Below are positions 38,786 through 50,874 of a stretch of DNA of 64,000 nt, in pieces. Position numbers and translations under genes: made by a program. The notes below the pieces were generated by a model, which worked only from the letters and a program-made list of their open reading frames with translations, had not been told where the DNA came from and searched no databases. Every line of letters begins with the position of its first letter. Within the stretch, counting starts at the first letter, position 1. Origin of the DNA: Candidatus Kaiserbacteria bacterium (GTDB lineage: Bacteria > Patescibacteriota > Minisyncoccia > Phycocordibacterales > UBA918); NCBI GenBank assembly GCA_016204695.1, contig JACQKD010000009.1:11710-75709 (forward strand). The letters run 5' to 3'.

Positions 38786-38822
38786 GAAAAATGCTCCCCG
38801 ACAAAGGGGAGCTTTTCTTATC
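38781..38822. terminator. 42-nt perfect palindrome overlapping the rplB stop (bidirectional intrinsic terminator), left edge of the island
   Basis: gataagaaaaatgctcccc-gacaaa-ggggagcttttcttatc. Confidence 0.5.
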
Positions 38823-38843
38823 TTTTTCCGAGCCGGAGCGATG

Positions 38844-38871
38844 TTTTTCTGCCCGTGCCGAGGCAGAAAAA
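38844..38871. terminator. second palindromic hairpin tttttctgcc-N8-ggcagaaaaa
   Basis: Read directly; 23 nt after the first hairpin. Confidence 0.4.
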
Positions 38872-39024
38872 CCGCGAGGCGTGGTCAAGGATGCTTAGTA
38901 GAATTTACGCGAAGCGGAAATTATACTTAGCAATCCGTGACGAAAGAGATAGTATCTCTTCCTATAAAAATACTACAGGCCACCAGGATACGCCCCGGTG
39001 GCCCGCGTTCGATTGGTCGACGCT

Positions 39025-39480
39025 TCAACTTCTTTCCCCTCGTCGCTCCTCTATTCTTGTCAGTACAGCGGCGGACCAGATCGCGGGAACGAATACCATG
39101 AGCGTCGGCATTCCCGCTGTGGTCAGATAAAGGTTTCCTGGCAGACTGACTTCACCTCTGAAATGCGCCCGTAGAGAGGTGCGAGTCCACGTCGAGATCT
39201 GATAGAGATTGTGGTATGGAGGCGAGGGGTCTCGACATGCGATTGTCAGCCGCTGGAAATCCTGACGTTGGTTACCGGTCAAAAACGGAACGTTACGCAG
39301 GAGTAGGTCTCGCATTCGCAGTCCCGTTACCTCGGCCATCTCGACGAGATCCACCCACTCCCGCCGTTCCAATCTGCCGATGAGTTCTTGGTCACTGCCG
39401 TGTGGAACAAACGGCAGAGTGTACCGCGCCGGCCGCACCTTTCTGGGCACTCGATCGATATCCATATCCATCATCTCCAT
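39025..39480 (-). CDS. hypothetical protein (151 aa), weak; possibly a remnant at the island edge
   Basis: ORF only. Confidence 0.2.
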   Translation of the reverse strand: MEMMDMDIDRVPRKVRPARYTLPFVPHGSDQELIGRLERREWVDLVEMAEVTGLRMRDLLLRNVPFLTGNQRQDFQRLTIACRDPSPPYHNLYQISTWTRTSLRAHFRGEVSLPGNLYLTTAGMPTLMVFVPAIWSAAVLTRIEERRGERS

Positions 39481-39641
39481 CCTCCTGCCGCATCTTGCGG
39501 CTCACTAGTCCATAGCCATAGGCGAACAACAAACTGGCGCGATACTGTCACAAAACCGTCCCGAACGCAAGATATCCGACAGTTATGCACTTGCACCTCT
39601 TGTGCTCGGCGGGGCAGATCATACCATGCACGTAACAGCCC

Positions 39642-42600
39642 ATGCACACTCTTCATTCTGCGCTCGGTGCGGGAATGACGCGGCATATCCGCGCAATGTC
39701 TGTCTTATTGTGTCTCCTTTTTCTCCTCGCCGCTCCGCGCATCGCCTCGGCGTATCTCGTTTTCAGCCAGAACCCGCCAAACGAAACATACAACGGCGCC
39801 ATGCTCGATAGCCCGTACCATTTTATAAGTTTCGGATGCACGCTCTCGCTCGACTGCGGAGTGGCGGGCGAGACAGTCTACCGCGTCGGCGTCTGGATGC
39901 AAAAAGTCGGCAGTCCGAAAGACGTGCGGCTCGATGTTGTCGGAGATTGGCAGGATATAAGCGGGACAAGCGCGGTCGCATCGACTCCGGTCTCGGCGGA
40001 CACAATTCCAAATGACGCCTATACGCTTGTGTGGTTTGATTTTCCCGAAGGAGTGGTGATCGGAGAGCGGGGCGCAAACAACCAGTTCTTCCAGTTTCAA
40101 TTCGCGGATGCGCCGGGGATGTATGACGCGGCCAACCATTACCGCGTCCTCTTTCATGAGACGAGCGACTTTTCCGGACCCGCGCAGTGGTGCAAAAAGT
40201 ACAGCGGCTGTTTCTCCTCGCAATTTTATTGGCAGATGGACGCCGGTCCGGTGCCGCAGGCACCGGACCAATTCTACGCGACCACTACCGCATCAGGCAC
40301 CGAGCAGTATGCGGACCACTTCGACGCAGACCCTTCGTGGAACACCGACCAACCCGAGCATTTTTCTTGGGACTCCGCGCGGCATGAACTGCGCGCGCAT
40401 ATGGAAAATACTCCACCCGCGTATCAACCCAATCGCTATTTTATAAAAGAGTTGGACATAGATCCGACCCAATCTTTCAGTATTTCGGCCGATCTCATGC
40501 TTGAAGATGCCCGCGGCGGCAATGGCGCCATACTCTTCGGACTCTTTGCGGACGACTTTACCCATGAAAATCTGACGCCGACGAACGGCCCGCGCATATA
40601 CAGCAAAAGCACGCTCAATCTCAAGCTCATGTCGCTTGGCGGGGGCAATCGCTTTTTTGAACTCAACGCTATCGGTCAGGATAGCGTACAGCAGGGCGGC
40701 GGAGGAAGCGGCCCCTCTTTTCGCCGCTACCGATGGTATACCTTTTATCTCCGCTATGATGCGGAAACCAAACACGTGTACGGGACCGTCATCGACACCA
40801 AGACCGGCCTGCCCTACATCTCGCTCGACGCCGACATGCCCGCAGGATTCTCGCCCGACATGCGCTATCTCGGTGTCAGCATGCATCCCGACGGCGAATT
40901 TCATTCAACCATGGCCGGAAGCGAACAGCGGCTCGCGGGCGCATCCGACTTCCGCATAGACAACGTCCGCGTTTTCGGCACCGCCTCCACCACTCCAACA
41001 CCCGCATGCTGTTCCAATATATTTTTCATCCCGGGCATTCAGGCGAGCCGATTGTATCTTGATGAAAATGGCAATGAGAATCGGCTCTGGGAGCCAAATT
41101 GGAGGACAGATATCAAAAAGCTCTTTTTTGATAAGAACGGGGAGAGCGTGACGCAAGGTATCTATACCAAAGATACGATTGATGCCGTATTCGGTAGGTC
41201 TGATATCTATGGCGAGTTTACTACTTCACTCGACGGTCTTGTGACGGATGGCACGATTGCCGACTGGCAAGCGTTTCCCTACGATTGGCGCAAGAGCGCG
41301 GAAGATGTTGTCGAAAGCGGCACTTCGATCAAGGTTGGCGATGATGTGCAGGTGGTGTATATGGCCGACGAGCTTCTCAATCTTGCCACCACCTCAAAGA
41401 GTGGAAAGGTAACCATTCTCGGCCACAGCAACGGCGGCATTGTTGGCAAACTGCTCATTGACGAACTGGTGCGCCGCGGTCATGCCGATCTCGTAGACAC
41501 ATTCATCATGGTCGCGACGCCCCAGCTCGGCACGCCGAAAGCGCTCGCGAGTCTTCTCCACGGCGACGAGCAGTCGATTCCGTGGGAGCACTTCGGCGTT
41601 GTTATGGACAAGAGCATGGCCCGCGATTTTGCGGAAACGATGCCCGGAGGGTACGCTCTCATTCCTTCGGCGAGATACATCTCAAGCGTGTCCGAACCGG
41701 TGATTGAATTTGATCCCGATGTTGCCGAGATTTACGACTTCCCATCGCTCTACGGTGATTCAATCGATACGCAGAGCGAACTACAGGAATTTCTCACGGG
41801 TGACAATGGCGGTCGCGCCAAACCATCCGAGGAAGATACCGACTCGCCAAATGTACTCGACAAGACACTCGTCGGAGAGGCATACACTCTGCACCGTCAT
41901 CTCGACTCATGGACTGCGCCGGAAGGCATCGAAGTGATTCAGATCGTCGGTTGGGGGCTCGATACCATCCGCGGCATCCGCTATGACGACTGCGACATAC
42001 TGCTGTGTCCTGATAATTTGGGTAACCTCGATAGGGAACTTCTTTTAGATACTGAAGGTGACGGAACTGTTGTAGCCGAAAGCGCAAGTGCCGCAACCGG
42101 AATGGAAACCTATTATCTAAAGTTACATGCTTATAACGATGGTACGGGAGAAAACAGAGACCACGCCGATTTTTTGGGAGCAAAACCAGTACAAGAACTC
42201 ATCAAGAACTTCGTACAAAATGGTACCAGTACATTACCGACATATGTCAGCCCCGAAAAACCGTCGGATACAAGTGACGAGCGCTTGCGATTCAGAATCC
42301 ATTCCCCCGTCTCTCTCGATCTCTATGACACGAAAGGCCGCCACACTGGCATTCTTCCGCCCGCACCAGATTCCGACCTGATGCGCATCGAAGCCGAAAT
42401 ACCCAACAGCTACTATCGCGAATTCGGAGAGGTAAAGTATGCGGGAGCGGGCTCTGGAGAGCCGGTTGGTGTTGTGCTCATCGGCCAAGACACTGGCACA
42501 TTCACGCTCGAGATTGAAGAGATTCGAGGAGATGCAGTGCAGGAGACAAGCGTATTTACGGACATTCCTGTGGTGGAAAACGCTCGCGCATCCGTTGAGA

Positions 42601-42998
42601 ATGTTGGCGGTACGGCGCCCCCTTCGCTCTCGCTCGACATGGATAATGATGGAGTCAATGACGCGTCGATCGCTCCGGGAGAGGGTCTGACCTCCCAAGA
42701 ATTGATCGGCATTCTCCGCGGTCTGATATGGACGCTTGATCTGCCGGTGGAGAAACAGAAGAAACTCGACAAGATCTTCGATACAATAGACAAGACGCTT
42801 ATCAAAGACCAGAAGTGCGTTGCACACGCAAAAGCCAAGTGCGAACACAATACCAAGCACAAGACCGATCAGGCATTTGCCAAGCTCTCGCAGTCAATAC
42901 AGAAATTATCCCGAGATAAAAAGGATGCGGTATCTTCGGAAGATGTGACCGACATACTGGCACTTATAAATCTCGTTAAAACTAATTTGAAAATATAA
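39642..42998 (+). CDS. large secreted multidomain protein with an alpha/beta-hydrolase (lipase/LCAT/PGAP1-like) domain
   Basis: N-terminal signal-like MSVLLCLLFLLAAPRIASA. Nucleophile elbow VTILGHSNGGIVGKLL with upstream FFIPGIQASRLY. A jelly-roll-like N-terminal region precedes it. The C-terminus has helical KK-rich repeats. Confidence 0.6.
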   Translation: MHTLHSALGAGMTRHIRAMSVLLCLLFLLAAPRIASAYLVFSQNPPNETYNGAMLDSPYHFISFGCTLSLDCGVAGETVYRVGVWMQKVGSPKDVRLDVVGDWQDISGTSAVASTPVSADTIPNDAYTLVWFDFPEGVVIGERGANNQFFQFQFADAPGMYDAANHYRVLFHETSDFSGPAQWCKKYSGCFSSQFYWQMDAGPVPQAPDQFYATTTASGTEQYADHFDADPSWNTDQPEHFSWDSARHELRAHMENTPPAYQPNRYFIKELDIDPTQSFSISADLMLEDARGGNGAILFGLFADDFTHENLTPTNGPRIYSKSTLNLKLMSLGGGNRFFELNAIGQDSVQQGGGGSGPSFRRYRWYTFYLRYDAETKHVYGTVIDTKTGLPYISLDADMPAGFSPDMRYLGVSMHPDGEFHSTMAGSEQRLAGASDFRIDNVRVFGTASTTPTPACCSNIFFIPGIQASRLYLDENGNENRLWEPNWRTDIKKLFFDKNGESVTQGIYTKDTIDAVFGRSDIYGEFTTSLDGLVTDGTIADWQAFPYDWRKSAEDVVESGTSIKVGDDVQVVYMADELLNLATTSKSGKVTILGHSNGGIVGKLLIDELVRRGHADLVDTFIMVATPQLGTPKALASLLHGDEQSIPWEHFGVVMDKSMARDFAETMPGGYALIPSARYISSVSEPVIEFDPDVAEIYDFPSLYGDSIDTQSELQEFLTGDNGGRAKPSEEDTDSPNVLDKTLVGEAYTLHRHLDSWTAPEGIEVIQIVGWGLDTIRGIRYDDCDILLCPDNLGNLDRELLLDTEGDGTVVAESASAATGMETYYLKLHAYNDGTGENRDHADFLGAKPVQELIKNFVQNGTSTLPTYVSPEKPSDTSDERLRFRIHSPVSLDLYDTKGRHTGILPPAPDSDLMRIEAEIPNSYYREFGEVKYAGAGSGEPVGVVLIGQDTGTFTLEIEEIRGDAVQETSVFTDIPVVENARASVENVGGTAPPSLSLDMDNDGVNDASIAPGEGLTSQELIGILRGLIWTLDLPVEKQKKLDKIFDTIDKTLIKDQKCVAHAKAKCEHNTKHKTDQAFAKLSQSIQKLSRDKKDAVSSEDVTDILALINLVKTNLKI

Positions 42999-43003
42999 AA
43001 GTT

Positions 43004-43405
43004 ATGGAAAGCAAAAAAAGAATCAATCAACTAATCATCGTAGCGGCGATTCTTTCTGTACTATTTTTCTTCCTATCCAGCCCGATAAAGAATGGTCTAT
43101 GCGCTGATACCGACATTAGTTGTGCTCGTTTGGGGGATAGTATTGGGATACCTATTTTCCTTTTTTCAATAAGTATTTTTATCCTGTGTGTATTGCTACG
43201 GTGGCTGTCTGCCGGCTTCCATGCATGGCTTCGGTTCGCAAAATACTATATTCTTGTTGCCGCACTTTTGATCACCGCTTCGCCGAGCGTGGCGACCACC
43301 ATCTTCGGCTTCGACAAAGAATTCATGTCCTGGGCTACGGCCGGCTTATTCCTCCTCGTCAGTCTGATACTCGTTGTTTATAAACAATTTAGGAAGAAAG
43401 AGTGA
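43004..43405 (+). CDS. small polytopic membrane protein (3-4 helices)
   Basis: Hydrophobic and AT-richer than its surroundings. Follows the hydrolase gene directly. Confidence 0.45.
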   Translation: MESKKRINQLIIVAAILSVLFFFLSSPIKNGLCADTDISCARLGDSIGIPIFLFSISIFILCVLLRWLSAGFHAWLRFAKYYILVAALLITASPSVATTIFGFDKEFMSWATAGLFLLVSLILVVYKQFRKKE

Positions 43406-43937
43406 TACTCGACATCCTATGCGAAATTTCTACCAATATCGTAAGTGGTTGGCGGTTCTCGCTCTTTCTTGCGGTATTCTAGCCGGATTAAGTACTCTTA
43501 TGTTTATTCCGTACGAAATGGGTCTGTGTCGGTACCACGATAGTCATTGTCGAGAGCGATATGAAAACAAAGGAGGAACTATTTTAGCGGTAACTTTTCC
43601 GGTATTCATACTGGGCTCATTTATATTCGTCCATACACGAAACGGTAAACGACCGTGGCGCATCTCACTTGTCATGTTGGGGTCCGTCGGCGCTCTTTCG
43701 GTTTTAGAAAATATCACTCATTCAGAAGGCGGTTTTGGTTTGTCGTTCCCATCTGAATTCGTTGTTCTTGCGATCATCTTGGGATTCGTTTACGGAGCAT
43801 ATCTCGTAAGTATGACGCTAAAAGAGTTGTTAGAGAGGAATCTCCTTTTTAGAAGAATAGGTGTCAAGACTCTGGCAGGTATACTCCTCACGCTGACTTT
43901 GGGAGTTTTCATGACTCTGGAATTCTTTTGGCTATAG
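43374..43937 (+). CDS. polytopic membrane protein (about 5 helices)
   Basis: Hydrophobic. Its start overlaps the previous gene. AT-richer than the flanking DNA. Confidence 0.45.
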   Translation: MFINNLGRKSDTRHPMRNFYQYRKWLAVLALSCGILAGLSTLMFIPYEMGLCRYHDSHCRERYENKGGTILAVTFPVFILGSFIFVHTRNGKRPWRISLVMLGSVGALSVLENITHSEGGFGLSFPSEFVVLAIILGFVYGAYLVSMTLKELLERNLLFRRIGVKTLAGILLTLTLGVFMTLEFFWL

Positions 43938-44165
43938 GGTCTCTATATCGTAGTATGATCTCGCTCGGCAAAAAGATCACGTCGAGGTTCTCTCCCGGTT
44001 TATTTCCAGTTCCTGGTGATGATACTCATCATATACAAACAAATTTGGGGCAGAGCGCAATAAAAGTGGGACTGTAGTACACTCATCGCATGTCCAAAGA
44101 AGCTGAAGATCGCCAGTGTCTCAAGAGGCCGCTTTTCTAGTCCTGCTGCAGATTTATTTTGGTAG

Positions 44166-45404
44166 TTGGAATTCCCTTCTTTCCGCCAGATGTCCAAGTT
44201 AGAACCCTTTATTAACATGCCACCAGAACAAAATAATCGTTCGTACGCGCATCTACCCGATGAACTGTTGGGAAAAATTCTCGAGAATGTCCCGCATACC
44301 GTCAACAAAATGAACAGCCTGTTCGATATCCAAGACGAACCTATCGCAAAAGGGATGGAGAAACTGCGGACCGGCGATAAAATCAAGAAGCTCTCCGCTA
44401 CGGAGGCCTCCAATTCGGTCATTGCTGTTGACGGAGGCAATATCCCCGAGAAAATGGCTGGCGCGGACGTGCTCCTAGCCGTTGCCGTCGGCGTTGAGGG
44501 TCTATCGGAGGATAAGGGTACGGAGTGGGGCAGCGAGAAGAATCAATACTACCAGTGGCAAACTGTCCTTCCTCACGGCGAAGCCAACGCACGTCTCATA
44601 CAAGGGGTGATGTTTTTGATGGAGTTATCGGTACTTGCGAACGACGACCATGAGATCCGTATTATGGACGGCACGCACTTCACGCCGATATTGAAGATAA
44701 ACAGCATGTTGTCGGCAAAGGAGGAGGGCGCGGGTGCTGAATACACGAACGCACTCCGGGACTTCTTGCGAGAAACCTACTCGAAAATCATCCCTGACAT
44801 CCCTCAAATCATTACGGCTGCACAAAACAACGAACACATCATTGCTCTTGCGAAGTACAGTTCGTCCACCGATGTCATCGACGCCTTCTTGAACGATTGC
44901 GATATCAAGCTCGACGACAAGACCTTCTTTTCTCTTGGCTTACAGGAGGATGAATACTTCGTGCCACATTCTGCCGGACAGAGTCCGCAGGAACGGGAGC
45001 GTATTTGGAACGAGCTGCACATCATCTGCAATCTCGATATACCCGAACGCGAGGAACTCAATTATGCGCTCGCCGCTGCAATTGAACCCATCAGGACGAA
45101 AGGCGGAAAAAAGTCAGAGCTCTACTACACCTACTATCGGCCATTCATGGACGGACCAGCATATCGCATCGAGCTCAAGAAAAGTGTCGCCGAAGACCAA
45201 TCCAAATTGGAGCGCTATCTCTTCAGCTTGAAAAACCAGATTGTTTTCCCCGAAATCCGCGAGCCATATCCTCAATATCTTGTCGACCTCATGGCAAAAA
45301 GTATCTCGACAGGCATGTTTGCAATCGTTGACGCCATTCGTCTCTCGCCCGATTTAAAAATTGACCAAGGTAAGTTCAATCTATTATTCTCATATCGCAC
45401 ATAA
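44166..45404 (+). CDS. NurA-like nuclease-domain protein
   Basis: Two DG(S/G/T) motifs characteristic of NurA (VIAVDGGNI and IRIMDGTHFTPIL). Translationally coupled to a HerA-like ATPase. The start is uncertain (alternative ATGs at about 44190 and 44217). Confidence 0.5.
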   Translation: MEFPSFRQMSKLEPFINMPPEQNNRSYAHLPDELLGKILENVPHTVNKMNSLFDIQDEPIAKGMEKLRTGDKIKKLSATEASNSVIAVDGGNIPEKMAGADVLLAVAVGVEGLSEDKGTEWGSEKNQYYQWQTVLPHGEANARLIQGVMFLMELSVLANDDHEIRIMDGTHFTPILKINSMLSAKEEGAGAEYTNALRDFLRETYSKIIPDIPQIITAAQNNEHIIALAKYSSSTDVIDAFLNDCDIKLDDKTFFSLGLQEDEYFVPHSAGQSPQERERIWNELHIICNLDIPEREELNYALAAAIEPIRTKGGKKSELYYTYYRPFMDGPAYRIELKKSVAEDQSKLERYLFSLKNQIVFPEIREPYPQYLVDLMAKSISTGMFAIVDAIRLSPDLKIDQGKFNLLFSYRT

Positions 45405-45406
45405 CT

Positions 45407-47221
45407 ATGGCAACTGAAAAAGAAAAGACAGCGAACTTCTCAGAGGAAATCCTTGAAGCAATAAAGAAGCAAGGCGATTCTCTCATTGGCATTACTGGCT
45501 CGCCAAGTACGACGCTCGACATCGTCATCGACATTGTCGAAAAGAGTAAGGCGCAGAGGGCTTTGGGCCAGATGGTTTATGTCGTAGTCAACGAAGACGG
45601 CCAAGACATTCTCGTTATAGGGCAAATCATCGGCATAGAGACGCAAAACCGATGGCATGAAGACCCTTCGTTCAAGGGTGTAATAAAGCGTCACGGGCGC
45701 CTCCCGCACTTGAGCGGTACGGCCGACAATCGCGTCGCTACAATCAGCGTGCAGGCCTGCTACAGCTTGGGGACCGAAACCCCGGAGGGTCATATCTTGG
45801 GAACTTCTCCTTCGACCGGCGAACGCGTACAGAAAATGAACAACGAGGTCATGTCCGCGTTGATGAAAAAGCACGACGGAATCACCTACATGGGTAAGGT
45901 GTACGGGACCGATGTCGATTTGCCGTTTTGGTTCAAGCACTTCGACAGGACCGACGAGAAGAACAAGGAAATTGGCGCGGGCGACGCGTATCACATAGGT
46001 GTCTTCGGCAGAACAGGCTCCGGTAAAACCGTTTCCGCGGCGTACATGCTCCTCGGTTATGCCAAAAACAAGAACAACATCAGCATCATGGTGCTTGACC
46101 CGCAACGACAATTCTTCGCGGATAAAGACCTGCTCCCACCAGACCAAAAGCTAGAGGACCACATTACCAAGACGGGAATGAAATATGAGAAATACGAAGT
46201 GCTGAAAGATATCTGTCTTCCGAGCGATAATTACGAGTTGTTTGGCGACTTGCTTGCGAACAACGGTTTCCTCGAGCTTGCCTTGCGTCCCTTGTACACT
46301 CCGGACAAAGTCGAAGCCGCGCGCGATGCTGTCATCGAGTATCTTCGCGGTCGAGCAAATGTACCGAGTTTCAATCTCAACTCGATTACCGACAAAACAG
46401 CTCTTCTTCAAGAGTTGCTGAATCGGTTTACAACGCCCACGGGTCCGCAGGAGACCAGCGCCGGCTACAGTTCCTATGTCATTTCAATATTTGGAACCAC
46501 GCAGACGCGCACACGCCTCCAAAATAGATTGGAGCATATTCGAGACCATCTCGCCACAGAGACGAACGTAGTCCGTAAATGGGGAAATGCTCTCGAGCTC
46601 TTTACCAAGACGCGAGCCGACAGTACGCAAAAGATGTCCGTGGAGGAGCTTGTGAAGAAAGTCGTACTGGAAAACGGGAATTTCATCGTGCTCGACATCA
46701 GCGGCACTCAAGTCGGCGAAATACAGAACGAAAACCTCCAAGCGGTTTTCATCAAGACGATTGAAGCGAAAATAGTTGAGCTTGGGGCGCAGCTCTATGC
46801 CGACGGTAAAAAAGCCAACTGTCTCATCGTTATGGACGAAGCGCACAGATTCATTTCCACTACGTCGCAAGACCCTCGCATCAAAGAACTCACGCAGGAA
46901 ATCATTGGCTCGGTCCGCACAACTCGCAAGTACGGCATCGGCTATATGTTCATTACGCAGACCATCGAATCATTGGACGACGAAATTCTGCGACAGATGC
47001 GAATTTTTGGTTTCGGATATGGGCTCACTTCCGGTTCGGAACTTCGGAAGGTCAGCGAGTTCGTAAACAATCCTTCAGCGATTCAGCTGTACAAGTCGTT
47101 CATCGACCCGAGTAGCAACCACAAATTCCCGTTCATGTTCTTTGGCCCGGTATCGCCCCTATCATTCACCGGCTCACCGCTTTTTATTGAAATGTACGGA
47201 GACGTAAAGGACTTCAGATAG
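45407..47221 (+). CDS. HerA/FtsK-like (DUF87) hexameric ATPase
   Basis: Walker A HIGVFGRTGSGKTVSAAYML, Walker B NCLIVMDEAHRF and FITQT sensor-like motif. 604 aa. Confidence 0.7.
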   Translation: MATEKEKTANFSEEILEAIKKQGDSLIGITGSPSTTLDIVIDIVEKSKAQRALGQMVYVVVNEDGQDILVIGQIIGIETQNRWHEDPSFKGVIKRHGRLPHLSGTADNRVATISVQACYSLGTETPEGHILGTSPSTGERVQKMNNEVMSALMKKHDGITYMGKVYGTDVDLPFWFKHFDRTDEKNKEIGAGDAYHIGVFGRTGSGKTVSAAYMLLGYAKNKNNISIMVLDPQRQFFADKDLLPPDQKLEDHITKTGMKYEKYEVLKDICLPSDNYELFGDLLANNGFLELALRPLYTPDKVEAARDAVIEYLRGRANVPSFNLNSITDKTALLQELLNRFTTPTGPQETSAGYSSYVISIFGTTQTRTRLQNRLEHIRDHLATETNVVRKWGNALELFTKTRADSTQKMSVEELVKKVVLENGNFIVLDISGTQVGEIQNENLQAVFIKTIEAKIVELGAQLYADGKKANCLIVMDEAHRFISTTSQDPRIKELTQEIIGSVRTTRKYGIGYMFITQTIESLDDEILRQMRIFGFGYGLTSGSELRKVSEFVNNPSAIQLYKSFIDPSSNHKFPFMFFGPVSPLSFTGSPLFIEMYGDVKDFR

Positions 47222-47225
47222 AGAG

Positions 47226-48404
47226 TTACTTATTTCGCACTAGGGCTTGATAGGTATTCTTGAAACCCTCTAATTCCTCTTCTGCATCGCGTATATAGCC
47301 AGCTGCTGTAAAGTCCTTATAGCTCACATCTCGCTGGCTTCTCGGGATAGCCCACCTTGTTTTCCAGCTGTCAGTAAGGTCCGTAATAGATCGCTTGATC
47401 CACTTCGGCTTTTTGTTGTGTCGTATGACCTCCTTGAGATTGTCTACCAAAGAGAAAAGATACACGCCACGCTTGATTGTATGCCGCGTTCCTTTTTCGA
47501 AGCCGATCATCTTCATTGCTTGATCGATGAGCTTGATCTTGCGAGACGGCCCCGATCCATAACCGCGAGCAGTATCGATATTTTTTGATTCCAAGTAGCG
47601 GAGCAAGTTTTCGTACATCAGGTTCGAGATATGGAAAGAGCCGATGCCGTTGCTGTAGCCGATAAAGTCGGCGACCATTTTTTCTTTGTACTTGAGACGA
47701 GCATAGATGCTACTCTTGCCGTAACCACCGGTCGTCGTGACGAAGAGTAATCGCGCAGGAATTTTACGCTTCTGCATTACGGTGCGGACCGTTCTATATT
47801 TTTTCTCGAAAGCACGACGTATCGTGTCGGAAGTGAGGAGACTAGCAACGAGTTTGCCGCCGAGGAGTTGATTGTATGGTGGAAGAGCACCAAGACGTTG
47901 CGCGCTTAGTGACTGATTGACCCAGTAATCCCGGTCCTTTGCAGAAATACCGAGGTGGCCATCTCGGACCGCCCAACTTAGGATTGGACTTTGAAGACCA
48001 ATAAGACCAATCGGGGCTTTATGGTAGCTGTCCCATACGAGAAAGCGCATCTGCCGACCGTAAGCGCGCTCATTCGGGAGGCTCCACCATACGAGACTCC
48101 ACCAGCGAAACATGATTTCCCATTTGCTACCGGCCTTGACCTCAATAAGTCGCGGCTTGATCTTGGCCACATTGATATCCTTACCGTTCGGTAAGTGTGA
48201 GAGGATGAACTGTTTGTGTTTCGTGACAAATTTTTCTTGAGCAAGAATGCGCTCGGCTTTCGCTATGATGTGCGCCTTACGTTTGGAGTCTCGGGTATTT
48301 TCTTTGAGCTGGATCACTCCGCTCCTTATACGGTAGCCTTGCTTATGCAGACTCCTGATGATTTCTCTTTTTAGTTCTTTAGATCTGGTAAGTGTCGATG
48401 GCAT
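47226..48404 (-). CDS. 392-aa protein of unknown function, convergent with the HerA-like gene (stops 4 bp apart)
   Basis: Clean ORF with a protein-like composition. No motif I can assign with confidence. Confidence 0.5.
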   Translation of the reverse strand: MPSTLTRSKELKREIIRSLHKQGYRIRSGVIQLKENTRDSKRKAHIIAKAERILAQEKFVTKHKQFILSHLPNGKDINVAKIKPRLIEVKAGSKWEIMFRWWSLVWWSLPNERAYGRQMRFLVWDSYHKAPIGLIGLQSPILSWAVRDGHLGISAKDRDYWVNQSLSAQRLGALPPYNQLLGGKLVASLLTSDTIRRAFEKKYRTVRTVMQKRKIPARLLFVTTTGGYGKSSIYARLKYKEKMVADFIGYSNGIGSFHISNLMYENLLRYLESKNIDTARGYGSGPSRKIKLIDQAMKMIGFEKGTRHTIKRGVYLFSLVDNLKEVIRHNKKPKWIKRSITDLTDSWKTRWAIPRSQRDVSYKDFTAAGYIRDAEEELEGFKNTYQALVRNK

Positions 48405-48550
48405 AGCTTTTTAGATTAGGTATCGTTGCATCTCCATTGTAGCTTTTTAGCAAGAGAACAGGTGATGAAGCACGTGGATACGCCTCCATACGCTAGTGTC
48501 AAGAGGTCATGTAAATAATTACTCAATTTTTGCCATATTGAGCACTACTG

Positions 48551-48579
48551 TTGATAACTCGCCTTGAGGGGTGTAAGAT
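48551..48579 (+). promoter_or_regulatory. sigma70-like promoter TTGATA-17-TAAGAT for the antitoxin gene
   Basis: Lies in the divergent intergenic region. The ATG at 48596 is 16 nt downstream of the -10. Confidence 0.35.
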
Positions 48580-48595
48580 ACGCTACTATTCAAGT

Positions 48596-49318
48596 ATGGC
48601 TTCTATGCTTTCAAAACTCAATATTAAAGCACTGCGGGAATCACACGGCATGTCGCAGGCGTATCTCGCCGAACGGCTTGGTATGTCTCGCCCGACCTTC
48701 ATAAAGGTGGAGAAAGGAGAACGGATACTGACTCGTCCTGAAGAGGAACGTGTCAGGGAGCTGTTCGGGATGGTTGATGAATTCACGAAAGCGACGGACA
48801 TACGCATCTCCGTACCGCAGAAGAAACTGGAGAAATTCAAACAGGTGCTCCTGTATGTGCTTGAGAAAACAGCCGGAAACCCGAAGATCGGCATGACCGC
48901 ACTCTACAAGCTCCTCTATTTCATTGATTTTGACTACTATGAAAAGTATGACCAGCAGTTGATGGGACTCACCTATATTAAAAATCACTATGGTCCAACG
49001 CCTCGCGAATTCGTGAAAGTGGTGGAGGACATGAAGCAGGCGGGCGATCTGGAAGAGGTGAGGAGTTCGTATTTTGCGTACGAGCAGAGAAAATTTCTTC
49101 CTCGCAAATCAGCAAACCTTGCGTCGTTAAGCGGCCAGGAGAAGGAGATGATTGATAGCGTCCTCGCACGATATGGTGATAAAAGCGCGACGGAACTCAC
49201 GCGGCTCTCACACGAGGATACGCCGTATGTGGTCGCGGAAGACGGGAAAAATATTGAGTACGAGCATGTGTTCTATCGTACCGACGGGTTCTCCGTGCGC
49301 GAGTATGATCCGCTGTAG
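48596..49318 (+). CDS. HTH-XRE + Panacea (DUF4065/SocA-like) domain protein, putative type II antitoxin
   Basis: N-terminal HTH LRESHGMSQAYLAERLGMSRPTFIKVEKGER. C-terminal ALYKLLYFIDFDYYEKYDQQLMGLTYIKNHYGPTPRE matches the Panacea/DUF4065 signature. Confidence 0.55.
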   Translation: MASMLSKLNIKALRESHGMSQAYLAERLGMSRPTFIKVEKGERILTRPEEERVRELFGMVDEFTKATDIRISVPQKKLEKFKQVLLYVLEKTAGNPKIGMTALYKLLYFIDFDYYEKYDQQLMGLTYIKNHYGPTPREFVKVVEDMKQAGDLEEVRSSYFAYEQRKFLPRKSANLASLSGQEKEMIDSVLARYGDKSATELTRLSHEDTPYVVAEDGKNIEYEHVFYRTDGFSVREYDPL

Positions 49319-49330
49319 GCGGTTGCACGT

Positions 49331-49669
49331 ATGAAATATGATGAGTTACACGAATTCTCGCGCGAATTGAAACGGCTTCGCAAAAAATACTTGACATTGA
49401 GCGATGACCTAGATGAACTGAAGCACACTTTGGCGAAGCTTACGATACAAGGCGGCGGGAAACACTGGACTTGTCTGCACCGAGAAGAGCGGGTGAGTAT
49501 CTATAAAATACGACTTGCGTGCCGATCTCTGCGGGCGACAACCATGCGAGTAATCTATGCACGTCATACGGATCCAGTCAGGATCGTTTTTATAGAACTT
49601 TATTACAAAGGCGAGAAAGAAAACGAAGATCGGGAACGTATCAAACAGTATCTTCTTGATACACAATGA
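49331..49669 (+). CDS. RelE/ParE(HigB)-superfamily toxin-like protein
   Basis: 112 aa. YKIRLACRSLRATTMRVIYARHTDPVRIVFIELYYKGEKEN resembles the RelE/ParE beta-core. Paired with the antitoxin-like gene 12 bp upstream. Confidence 0.4.
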   Translation: MKYDELHEFSRELKRLRKKYLTLSDDLDELKHTLAKLTIQGGGKHWTCLHREERVSIYKIRLACRSLRATTMRVIYARHTDPVRIVFIELYYKGEKENEDRERIKQYLLDTQ

Positions 49670-49877
49670 TAATGTGGTACTGCTCGGACCTGCCATAGAG
49701 GACAAGGATCTAGAGCACGAGTTCGTGCATGTGGAGCAGTTCGAGCGAGCGCCGTTCATATCTATGTTTTTGATGTGGATCGACAAGGCGAAAAACGGTA
49801 ATAGGTACAGTACGTATGAGGACGAAGCATATCGCCGGGCCGGCAATGTCTGGAAAGGCGAGGAGAAACGGAAGTGA
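49656..49877 (+). CDS. 73-aa ORF carrying an HExxH motif (HEFVHVEQ); possible remnant of a metallopeptidase
   Basis: Overlaps the toxin 3' end in another frame. No signal beyond the motif. Confidence 0.15.
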   Translation: MIHNDNVVLLGPAIEDKDLEHEFVHVEQFERAPFISMFLMWIDKAKNGNRYSTYEDEAYRRAGNVWKGEEKRK

Positions 49878-49892
49878 GAGGGTATAAAGGTA

Positions 49893-49928
49893 AAAGCCGG
49901 TGCGGACGTATGTCCGCACCGGCTTTTC
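49893..49928. terminator. palindromic hairpin aaaagccggtgcggac-gtat-gtccgcaccggctttt (bidirectional terminator)
   Basis: Read directly. Lies between convergent ORFs. Confidence 0.5.
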
Positions 49929-49943
49929 GCAAGCGTGCATGTT

Positions 49944-50210
49944 TCATTTGTCCTCCCACGGGGAGTTTTCCCGTATCCACTCTTCGACGTGTTGTGCGAG
50001 GGTGATAGCGACAAATGTCCAGAGAAGCGCAAGATAGGTTCCCATAGCCGCGTTCCCGAGTATGAGCCAGACTGACTTCAGCCATCTTGCACTTACGAAT
50101 ATCCACCCCACCTGGAAGAGTATGAAAACCGCAATGCTCGCCCATGCGAGCAAATGGACGAATCCGACCAAATGACCAATCCGCGGGACCTTCCGTCTTC
50201 GATCAGCCAT
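49944..50210 (-). CDS. small two-helix membrane protein (88 aa)
   Basis: Hydrophobic LVGFVHLLAWASIAVFILFQVGWIFV and LALLWTFVAITLA. Confidence 0.3.
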   Translation of the reverse strand: MADRRRKVPRIGHLVGFVHLLAWASIAVFILFQVGWIFVSARWLKSVWLILGNAAMGTYLALLWTFVAITLAQHVEEWIRENSPWEDK

Positions 50211-50377
50211 TACGACCCCCCTTGTTGCTCGGGTTATATCGAGTATGAACTACGGAACATGACTTGCGTGATAGTTTCATACTATGGTGTAGCTGGCAAG
50301 AAAATACCGCGCAAGTTAACTCGCATTTGAGACCCATACCATATGAGAATTCAAGGGTGGTGGACGCGAACAGGCGT

Positions 50378-50406
50378 TTGACAGCCCCTATGCTTTCGCG
50401 TACTAT
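50378..50406 (+). promoter_or_regulatory. sigma70-like promoter TTGACA-17-TACTAT about 120 nt upstream of rpsS (right edge of the island)
   Basis: Exact -35 hexamer, 17-nt spacer and a good -10. It would restart transcription of rpsS through secY after the insertion. Confidence 0.5.
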
Positions 50407-50526
50407 GCCTGCACAAAGCTCGAACGGGCTTTTTTGTTTGCTGGGCAGTGTTATATATGTAGGGTGCATATGTGACGCGGCCGACCGATCAAGCGCGGTC
50501 GCCAAGCGGGTGGCATACGTATCTTT

Positions 50527-50874
50527 ATGTCCCGGTCACTATATAAAGGACCATACGTCGACGAAAAATTGCTCAAGAAAGTGTTGAGCAAGAAGTCCCG
50601 TGAGGCGGGGACTATTAAGACGTGGGCGCGCCGGAGCCAGATCTCTCCGGAAATGGTGGGATATACCTTCGGAGTGCACAACGGCAAGGATCATATCGAC
50701 GTATTCGTGAGCGAGGAGATGGTGGGGCACCGGCTGGGGGAGTTCTCACCGACCACCAAATTTGTCCGCCACGGCGGCCAGATGCAGAAGGGTCTTGAGG
50801 CAAAAAAGAAGGAGGGCGAGATTGCGGCGGCGAAGGCCGCAAAGGCCGTGGCCACTCCCGCCAAGAAGAAGTAA
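50527..50874 (+). CDS. rpsS: 30S ribosomal protein S19 (with a Lys/Ala-rich C-terminal tail)
   Basis: [19 protein letters not shown]...[23 protein letters not shown]. Confidence 0.9.

What the first reader, a model, noticed from the sequence alone, without database searches (positions are those of the whole stretch)
44166..48404. NurA-like nuclease + HerA/DUF87-like ATPase operon with a convergent 392-aa unknown partner: candidate defence or DNA-end-processing module
The 412-aa ORF carries two DG(S/G/T) motifs (VIAVDGG, IMDGTHF) typical of NurA. Its stop is 2 nt before the start of a 604-aa protein with HerA-type Walker A (GRTGSGKT), Walker B (VMDEAHRF) and a TQ sensor. A 392-aa gene of no recognisable family converges on HerA, with stops 4 bp apart. 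HerA-type ATPases pair with various nucleases or effectors (NurA, SIR2, DUF4297) in DNA repair and in anti-phage systems. Here the pair sits in an accessory island with a toxin-antitoxin module, not in a repair gene context. The three-gene combination may be an undescribed variant.
Basis: partly seen in the sequence, partly recalled or inferred. Interest (0 to 1): 0.8.

Follow-up and report, generated by a model that had tools for sequence, protein, structure and literature searches.

The report
Conserved DruA–NurA–HerA three-gene cassette
The three genes form a compact, horizontally spread cassette found in many bacterial phyla: a DNA-pumping ATPase, its nuclease, and a Druantia-type DruA protein. 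It is most likely an undescribed anti-phage or anti-plasmid system and gives a new way to study what DruA does.

Summary
The ORFs, motifs and spacings are as described. The 412-aa protein is a NurA nuclease by Pfam and by predicted fold, and probably starts at Met18 (395 aa). The 604-aa protein is a HerA/DUF87 ATPase. The 392-aa "unknown" protein is a full-length DruA/DUF4338 with a GNAT-like core, the marker protein of type I Druantia.

The three genes are one conserved unit. I found 99 non-redundant loci in more than 10 phyla and 88 carry all three genes. In 77 of those the order is DruA→NurA→HerA as a tight operon. The convergent DruA here is a rare rearrangement, seen in 2 of 88. Searching with DruA gave NurA next door in 68 of 75 informative loci.

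The genes flanking the trio differ from genome to genome. The recurring neighbours are restriction-modification genes, serine recombinases, toxin-antitoxin pairs and tRNA genes. No DruB–E is present, and neither PADLOC nor the searchable literature describes the trio.

Best reading (confidence 0.6): a mobile defence cassette in which HerA–NurA degrades DNA and DruA senses or controls. The main rival is an accessory DNA-end-resection module, because two loci add Mre11/Rad50-like genes. I rate it a new variant of a known kind.

The parts
44182..48448 (.). Cassette block: the whole three-gene unit with short 5' leaders. It is the only stretch shared with the closest relative that sits in a different genomic context.
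   Evidence: blastn of the window against L001 gives 88.9% identity over exactly 44182-48448 and no similarity outside that range. L001 is a 4503-nt contig holding only the trio.
44217..45404 (+). NurA-like nuclease, 395 aa from ATG 44217 (the mechanical ORF from TTG 44166 gives 412 aa). The motif-I Asp (VIAVDGG) is at 44430-44432 and the IMDGTHF Asp is at 44667-44669.
45407..47221 (+). HerA/FtsK-superfamily ATPase (DUF87), 604 aa. Walker A is at 46007-46030 and Walker B at 46829-46852.
   Evidence: Pfam DUF87 at E=3.4e-9, 37.5 bits against 23.2. The profile against PDB hits a defence HerA 8wiv (3.5e-5), TdpA 8wet (9.6e-5) and SsoHerA 4d2i. Walker A/B and the TQ sensor are invariant. Identity to the window co-varies with NurA at r=0.96 across loci.
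47226..48404 (-). DruA/DUF4338 protein, 392 aa. The GNAT-like core is at about aa 84-330 (47415-48155), with a small N-terminal domain and C-terminal helices.
44182..44189 (+). Possible remnant of a tRNA 3' end (TCCGCCAG) at the left edge of the cassette. This is weak evidence.
   Evidence: In L001 the cassette directly abuts ...GGTTCGAATCCTTCCGCCTCCGCCA, and homology with the window starts inside that acceptor end. The window has no tRNA gene. About 16 of 52 other loci have a tRNA gene within 4 kb upstream.

Best explanation
This is a self-contained, horizontally mobile three-gene module, DruA-NurA-HerA, here in a rearranged form with DruA inverted downstream. It most likely protects the cell against phages or other invading DNA.

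What is shown: the three genes are a conserved unit across phyla, the folds and families are as named, and the catalytic and nucleotide-binding motifs are intact.

What is inferred: by analogy with solved HerA-NurA complexes, a HerA hexamer uses ATP to thread double-stranded DNA from free ends into a NurA dimer, which degrades both strands. DruA has a GNAT-like acyltransferase fold and an invariant core that it shares with type I Druantia DruA. It would be the third obligatory subunit, deciding when or on what the degradation machine acts. It could do this by sensing infection, by gating assembly or activity, or by acyl-marking a protein or nucleic acid. DruA would then be a portable control module that different lineages couple to different DNA motors: DruB-E, NurA-HerA, or a kinase-ORC/CDC6 ATPase.
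For: Unit: a scan with HerA gave 54 genomic and 3 viral loci, and a scan with DruA gave 80 metagenomic loci. After removing redundancy there are 99 loci, and 88 carry all three genes. The order is DruA>NurA>HerA in 77, NurA>HerA>DruA on the same strand in 9 (cyanobacteria), and convergent in 2. Median gaps are 2 nt and 8 nt. In the reverse test, 68 of the 75 DruA loci with room on the contig have NurA next to DruA. The linkage persists where NurA and HerA are only 24-32% identical to the window's (L047, L057, L059, L061, L082, L085, L087).

Mobility: the proteins are 55-75% identical across Patescibacteria, Omnitrophota, Proteobacteria, Nitrospirota, Bacteroidota, Firmicutes and others. The block shared with L001 ends at the gene boundaries. 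Many contigs are about 4.5 kb, the size of the trio. tRNA genes and large serine recombinases lie alongside.

Context: flanks are unrelated between genomes. The recurrent neighbours are type IIG/ISP/PglX-like methyltransferases, SNF2-PLD and ResIII helicases, type I HsdR, GmrSD, PIN/MazF/AbiEii toxins and HTH-M78 regulators.

Components: DruA is the signature protein of type I Druantia. HerA partnered with a nuclease is an established defence design (PMC11291478). HerA-NurA degrades both strands from DNA ends, and an antiviral role has been proposed for it (PMC12977600).
Against: No experiment supports this. Defence is inferred from context and from the components. A minority of loci sit among housekeeping genes, for example L067 with FtsK, RNase J and PNPase. 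In two loci the trio is followed by Mre11-like and Rad50/SbcC-like genes, which is the classical repair set. There is no hit in cultured-phage genomes and no enrichment statistic against a genomic background. DruA's biochemical activity is unknown, so the GNAT fold does not say whether it senses, marks or kills. The NurA model is of only moderate confidence (pLDDT 64.8).
Confidence: 0.6

Rival explanations
1. This is an accessory DNA double-strand-break end-resection or recombination module. HerA-NurA processes chromosomal DNA ends as proposed for archaea and Deinococcus, and DruA acts as a regulatory or modifying subunit.
For: The fold and family match repair-type NurA and HerA. L036 (Anaerolineae) and L037 (Rhodothermales) carry DruA-NurA-HerA followed, with 4-nt overlaps, by Metallophos (Mre11/SbcD-like) and SbcC/Rad50-like genes. 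Some loci lie among housekeeping genes.
Against: The distribution is patchy and looks horizontally transferred. Flanks are variable and dominated by restriction-modification, toxin-antitoxin and recombinase genes. DruA is otherwise known only from a defence system. Only 2 of about 99 loci have Mre11/Rad50-like genes, and SbcCD-like pairs also occur in defence contexts (the last point is from general knowledge).
Confidence: 0.2
2. The cassette serves the mobile element that carries it. It could help maintain, replicate or package the element, or exclude competing elements, with HerA acting as a DNA pump.
For: The cassette is frequently linked to serine recombinases, tRNA integration sites and ParB-methyltransferase genes. 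Three copies are on IMG/VR contigs. HerA shows weak superfamily similarity to FtsK/HerA-type terminases and Zot.
Against: The same trio occurs with quite different or no element genes. No capsid, relaxase or T4SS genes are nearby. There is no hit in 50,697 phage genomes. Excluding competitor elements would in practice be a form of defence.
Confidence: 0.12
3. DruA is merely an adjacent, unrelated gene, for example an orphan remnant of a Druantia system next to an independent NurA-HerA pair.
For: In this window it lies on the opposite strand with its own upstream region, and DruB-E are absent.
Against: DruA is adjacent to NurA-HerA in 88 non-redundant loci across phyla, usually separated by 2 nt in the same operon. 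It is still present where the partners have diverged to about 25% identity. All family-invariant residues are intact.
Confidence: 0.03
4. The 604-aa ATPase is a conjugative FtsK/TraD/VirB4-type coupling protein.
For: There are borderline Pfam and NCBIfam hits to T4SS-DNA_transf, VirB4 and TraC, restricted to the P-loop region.
Against: All of these score far below the family cut-offs (for example 31.9 bits against 590). DUF87/HerA is the best match and passes its cut-off. A NurA partner is always present, and no T4SS or relaxase genes are nearby.
Confidence: 0.02

Closest known systems
Type I Druantia (DruABCDE)
   Same: It has a full-length DruA/DUF4338 protein of the same length and architecture. 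29 core residues are invariant between the trio DruA and DruA from the P. putida, N. watsonii and Meiothermus DruA-E operons. In most loci DruA is the first gene of the operon, as in Druantia.
   Different: There is no DruB, DruC or DruD, and none of the roughly 1,800-aa DruE helicase that defines every Druantia type. NurA and HerA take their place. DruA identity is only about 33%.
Archaeal/Deinococcus HerA-NurA DNA-end-processing complex
   Different: A third obligatory gene (DruA) is present. The distribution is patchy and mobile. Mre11/Rad50-like genes are linked in only 2 of about 99 loci. The sequences are too diverged for HMMER to find any PDB NurA.
HerA-effector defence systems (SIR2-HerA, DUF4297-HerA)
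   Same: A HerA-family hexameric ATPase is paired with a degradative effector in defence-island contexts. The published complexes are constitutively active in vitro, so they need an unknown control step (PMC11291478). DruA could provide such a step here.
   Different: The effector is NurA rather than SIR2 or DUF4297. The HerA subfamily is different (NCBIfam HerA_antiphage_2 scores 16.5 bits against a cut-off of 850). This is a three-gene system, not a two-gene one.
TdpAB (HerA-like TdpA plus NurA-like TdpB; PDB 8wet)
MADS (methylation-associated defence system, mad1-8)
   Same: The best PADLOC hit of the HerA-like protein is mad8 (E=6.6e-16). Some trio loci have a large methyltransferase directly upstream.
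   Different: MADS is an eight-gene system. Only the ATPase core of mad8 is similar, and the other mad components are absent here.

Membership tests
NurA nuclease family (PF09376) | Profile match above the curated cut-off | tested here: met
   38.5 bits against a cut-off of 21, E=1.2e-9, covering profile positions 2-231 of 254.
NurA nuclease family (PF09376) | RNase-H-like NurA fold | tested here: met
NurA nuclease family (PF09376) | Catalytic acidic residues (motif-I Asp and partners) | tested here: inconclusive
   D72 (VIAVDGG), E136, D151, H154 and D357 are invariant in 30 homologues. D72 lies at the start of the Pfam match, where the essential Asp of TkoNurA (Asp49, PMC12977600) is expected. 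No residue-level structural alignment was available.
NurA nuclease family (PF09376) | Encoded next to and co-evolving with a HerA ATPase | tested here: met
   The gap here is 2 nt. The median gap is 8 nt in 79 loci, and identity correlates at r=0.96.
HerA/FtsK-superfamily ATPase (DUF87, PF01935) | Profile match above the cut-off, with Walker A, Walker B and Gln sensor-1 | tested here: met
   37.5 bits against 23.2. GRTGSGKT, VMDEAH and TQ are invariant. The profile hits HerA chains 8wiv and 4d2i in the PDB.
HerA/FtsK-superfamily ATPase (DUF87, PF01935) | Hexamer formation, ATP-driven DNA translocation and complex with NurA | not testable with these tools
   This needs biochemistry or multimer modelling.
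DruA / DUF4338 (PF14236) | Full-length profile match | tested here: met
   Pfam 204 bits against 27, covering profile positions 8-296 of 297. PADLOC DruA1 at E=2.4e-89, positions 13-384 of 407.
DruA / DUF4338 (PF14236) | GNAT-like core (as assigned in PMC10853773) | tested here: met
Type I Druantia system (DruABCDE) | DruE: large YprA-like helicase of about 1,800 aa | tested here: not met
   The largest ORF in the window is 1,118 aa (LCAT-like, no PADLOC hit). None of the trio loci examined had a gene of this kind adjacent. Canonical operons do have it.
Type I Druantia system (DruABCDE) | DruB, DruC and DruD downstream of DruA | tested here: not met
   The genes next to DruA are NurA and HerA in 88 loci.
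Archaeal-type HerA-NurA-Mre11-Rad50 repair operon | Linked Mre11 and Rad50 genes and vertical, housekeeping-type inheritance | tested here: not met
   These genes are absent from the window. They are present only in L036 and L037. The distribution is patchy across phyla with high identity, which points to horizontal transfer.
SIR2-HerA / DUF4297-HerA defence systems | SIR2 or DUF4297 effector and the matching HerA subfamily | tested here: not met
   No such effector is present. NCBIfam HerA_antiphage_2 scores 16.5 bits against a cut-off of 850, and the PADLOC HerA models match only the C-terminal P-loop part.
Anti-phage defence system (generic) | Experimental protection against phage | not testable with these tools
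   Only contextual evidence is available.

The most novel reading that the evidence does not exclude
DruA is a general-purpose immune licensing enzyme. It would be a GNAT-type acyltransferase that marks self or non-self material (DNA, as phage Mu Mom does, or a partner protein) and so gates whichever DNA-destroying motor it is wired to: DruE in Druantia, HerA-NurA here, or a kinase-ORC/CDC6 ATPase in L147. The trio would then be a restriction-modification-like system built on an acyl mark and an archaeal-type end-resection machine.
Probability: 0.12. Interest if true: 0.85.

Novelty: new variant of a known kind. Interest (0 to 1): 0.62.

Why it matters
DruA's role in Druantia is unknown. Recent mechanistic Druantia work found in the library search concerns type III (DruH/DruE), not DruA. 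A three-gene system in which DruA is coupled to a structurally well-understood machine (HerA6-NurA2) is a much simpler place to find out what DruA does than the five-gene Druantia I.

It would also show that the classical archaeal-type end-resection pair has been recruited into a mobile immune cassette. That bears on the current debate over whether HerA-NurA is a repair or an antiviral machine (PMC12977600).

There is a practical consequence too. Annotation pipelines now label these proteins 'Druantia anti-phage system protein DruA' even though no Druantia system is present, so defence-system censuses of CPR and environmental genomes could be misread.

Tried and rejected
- **Transposon or circular-element idea.** This was prompted by the many contigs of about 4.5 kb. 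No terminal inverted or direct repeats flank the cassette, and no transposase lies inside it. The contig sizes are better explained by assemblies breaking at the edges of a cassette shared between different contexts.
- **Sequence searches of NurA against the PDB.** Both the single sequence and the profile found nothing. The fold had to be tested by structure prediction.
- **Cultured-phage genomes and a DruA scan of IMG/VR.** Neither gave a hit. Only three IMG/VR contigs carry a distant trio.
- **MADS link through mad8.** Only the ATPase core is similar, and MADS is an unrelated eight-gene system.
- **TdpAB literature.** It is not in the searchable library, so only the PDB entry titles could be used.
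- **Armatimonadota HerA relatives (38-40% identity).** They are solitary, sit next to MinC, GntR or hydrolase genes, and are not part of this system.
- **B12-radical-SAM and DUF3047 neighbours.** They are specific to Nitrospirales and were judged to be lineage context, not part of the system.
- **The neighbouring Panacea antitoxin pair as part of the system.** Rejected, because it has no hit in any locus apart from the copies of the source genome itself (L002, L003).
Full report
**Observation.** There is a 2-nt gap between the first two genes and 4 nt between the convergent stop codons. All the quoted motifs are present and fall in columns that are invariant among homologues. The 412-aa ORF begins at a TTG. 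Homologues are 395-404 aa long, gene callers start at internal Met codons, and DNA homology to the nearest relative begins at 44182. The real start is therefore probably ATG 44217, giving 395 aa.

**Family assignments.**
- The second protein passes the DUF87/HerA cut-off. Its profile hits a defence HerA (8wiv), TdpA (8wet) and SsoHerA (4d2i). Hits to conjugative ATPases are far below their cut-offs.

I tested the linkage in both directions.
- A scan of 185,579 species genomes with a HerA alignment gave 54 loci, and IMG/VR gave 3 more. tblastn with the window's NurA and DruA found both next to HerA in nearly all loci of the family.
- A scan of metagenome contigs with a DruA alignment gave 80 loci. 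Of these, 59 carry the full trio, 9 have DruA+NurA before the contig ends, 5 end right after DruA, and 7 have no detectable NurA.
- After collapsing loci at 95% nucleotide identity there are 99 loci, and 88 have all three genes. The order is DruA>NurA>HerA in 77, NurA>HerA>DruA on one strand in 9 (cyanobacteria), and NurA>HerA followed by an inverted DruA in 2 (this window's lineage and L001). Median gaps are 2 nt for DruA-NurA and 8 nt for NurA-HerA.
- The linkage survives where NurA and HerA have diverged to 24-32% identity. NurA and HerA identities co-vary tightly (r=0.96). DruA co-varies less (r about 0.7), and DruA proteins 53-58% identical to the window's pair with very divergent NurA-HerA. 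This suggests module exchange.
- The window's own cassette looks chimeric. Its NurA-HerA is 86% and 92% identical to that of a Paceibacterota genome (L005), whose DruA is only 56% identical and lies upstream.

**Mobility and context.** The source is a Candidatus Kaiserbacteria (CPR) genome. The window and L001 share 88.9% nucleotide identity over exactly 44182-48448 and nothing outside that range. In L001 the cassette abuts the 3' end of a tRNA gene. About 16 of 52 other loci have a tRNA gene within 4 kb upstream, and tRNA-Asn recurs. No terminal repeats were found.

Flanking genes differ between genomes. Among 608 neighbour proteins the commonest family is a large serine recombinase, found in 16 of 99 loci. 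Among 144 nearest neighbours there are 131 Pfam families. The recurring ones are ResIII/SNF2 helicases, type IIG/ISP/PglX-like methyltransferases, type I HsdR, GmrSD, HTH-M78 regulators and PIN/AbiEii-type toxins. Individual loci show integrases, Shedu SduA_C, PIN-MazE, HNH and FRG genes. A few loci sit among housekeeping genes.

Two kinds of extended arrays recur:
- **RM-like pairs upstream.** Co-directional restriction-modification-like pairs sit directly upstream of DruA. L027 and L062 have SNF2-PLD plus an Eco57I/MmeI methyltransferase. The distant viral copies L059 and L061 have an N6_N4 methyltransferase plus ResIII/SWI2-SNF2.
- **Repair-type pairs downstream.** Mre11-like plus Rad50/SbcC-like genes sit directly downstream of HerA in L036 and L037.

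**Relation to Druantia.** Canonical type I operons on plasmids (P. putida pKF715A, N. watsonii) run DruA, two or three mid-sized genes, then a DEAD-box helicase of about 1,840 aa. Their DruA is about 33% identical to the window's over 93% of its length. An alignment across contexts covered trio loci, three Druantia I operons and L147, where DruA precedes a kinase-ORC/CDC6-like ATPase. It leaves 29 invariant residues concentrated in the GNAT core: WS.P, YGR..R...D, RD, GA.PPY, GGKL, G.SS.Y.RL, G..G..FH and G.GP. DruA therefore keeps one conserved activity while its partners change. The window has no DruB-E.

**Prior description.** PADLOC-DB v2 has no model that matches the NurA partner, and its best HerA match is the unrelated mad8. 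NCBIfam has no model for the DruA or NurA proteins. Full-text searches for NurA+HerA+Druantia, NurA+HerA+GNAT, DUF4338 and DruA found no description of the trio. The NurA subfamily is small. It has 418 representatives at E<=1e-3 and 39 at E<=1e-30 among 1.84 billion clusters.

**Mechanism.**
- Shown: a conserved three-gene unit, the folds, and intact motifs.
- Inferred from solved HerA-NurA complexes (PMC12977600): a HerA hexamer threads dsDNA from free ends into a NurA dimer, which cuts both strands.
- Inferred from defence HerA-nuclease complexes (PMC11291478): such machines are dangerous to the cell and need a control step, and DruA is the obvious candidate for it.
- Unknown: whether DruA senses, marks or acts as a second effector.
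- Confidence: I put 0.6 on a defence role, about 0.2 on an accessory end-resection role, and about 0.12 on a function serving the mobile element.

**Verdict.** The trio is a widespread, mobile and apparently undescribed cassette, a new variant of known kinds (HerA-nuclease defence systems and DruA-associated systems). This window holds an atypical rearranged copy inside an island that splits the ribosomal S10 operon.

Noticed in passing
window 38786-50526: The whole accessory island of about 11.7 kb, with GC 0.44-0.50 against about 0.58 in the flanks, is inserted between rplB (L2, 37925-38785) and rpsS (S19, 50527-50874). It therefore splits the otherwise contiguous S10 ribosomal-protein operon (L3, L4, ..., L2 | island | S19, L22, S3, L16, ...). 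The same arrangement is seen in three independent assemblies of the same organism.
   Followed up: partly
window 48551-49669: An HTH_3 + SocA/Panacea-domain antitoxin gene (255 aa) is followed 12 nt later by a 112-aa gene with no Pfam family (weak match to phrog_5869), a likely PanA-type toxin-antitoxin pair. It does not accompany the trio in any locus other than the copies of the source genome itself.
   Followed up: partly
window 39642-43937: A 1,118-aa protein with an N-terminal signal-like segment and an LCAT/lipase-like alpha/beta-hydrolase domain is followed by two small multi-pass membrane proteins (133 and 187 aa). Together they fill the left half of the island.
   Followed up: no
L036 7693-16589; L037 7143-16166: Five-gene arrays of DruA-NurA-HerA-Metallophos(Mre11/SbcD-like)-SbcC/Rad50-like with 4-nt overlaps, in an Anaerolineae and a Rhodothermales genome. 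This is the full archaeal-type end-resection gene set plus DruA.
   Followed up: partly
L027 445-11027; L062 1316-11800; L059 699-11803; L061 1360-11812; L064 5780-13010: Large restriction-modification-like genes lie directly upstream of DruA on the same strand, and they come from two unrelated families. One family is SNF2-PLD plus an Eco57I/MmeI/TaqI_C methyltransferase (L064 has the methyltransferase only, with no SNF2-PLD gene). The other is an N6_N4 methyltransferase plus ResIII/SWI2-SNF2. The viral-contig copies share only 24-31% identity with the window's trio. This may be a recurrent functional coupling rather than just island neighbourhood.
   Followed up: partly
L147 1474-5158: A DruA homologue (45% identical) is followed, with overlap, by an 852-aa protein kinase + ORC/CDC6-like ATPase instead of NurA-HerA. 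This is a third kind of DruA partner.
   Followed up: partly
BFVD entries A0A3G4ZXG3 (Faunusvirus), A0A5K0UAJ3 (Yasminevirus), A0A3G4ZRA1 (Dasosvirus): The DruA model has near-full-length structural matches (Foldseek E 3e-15 to 3e-8, 13-19% identity) to uncharacterised proteins of giant viruses of amoebae, and to one Caudovirales fragment.
   Followed up: no
L001 1-29; window 44160-44189: In the closest relative the cassette starts immediately after a tRNA 3' end (GGTTCGAATCCTTCCGCCTCCGCCA). The window keeps only TCCGCCA at the same junction, possibly a remnant of an att site.
   Followed up: partly
L005 7620-11785 versus window 44217-48404: The window's NurA-HerA is 86% and 92% identical to that of a Paceibacterota genome, but the DruA proteins are only 56% identical and lie in different positions. 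The window cassette is apparently a recombinant in which DruA was replaced and inverted.
   Followed up: partly
L038-L045, L050, L052, L054: Armatimonadota encode HerA-like proteins 38-40% identical to the window's, but they are solitary and sit next to MinC, GntR-type regulators or hydrolases. This is a paralogous family with a different, possibly housekeeping, role.
   Followed up: partly
L082 1295-2716: One trio locus has a ThiF/E1-like gene as its immediate neighbour, and it matches PADLOC E1-E2 (ubiquitin-like conjugation defence) models.
   Followed up: no
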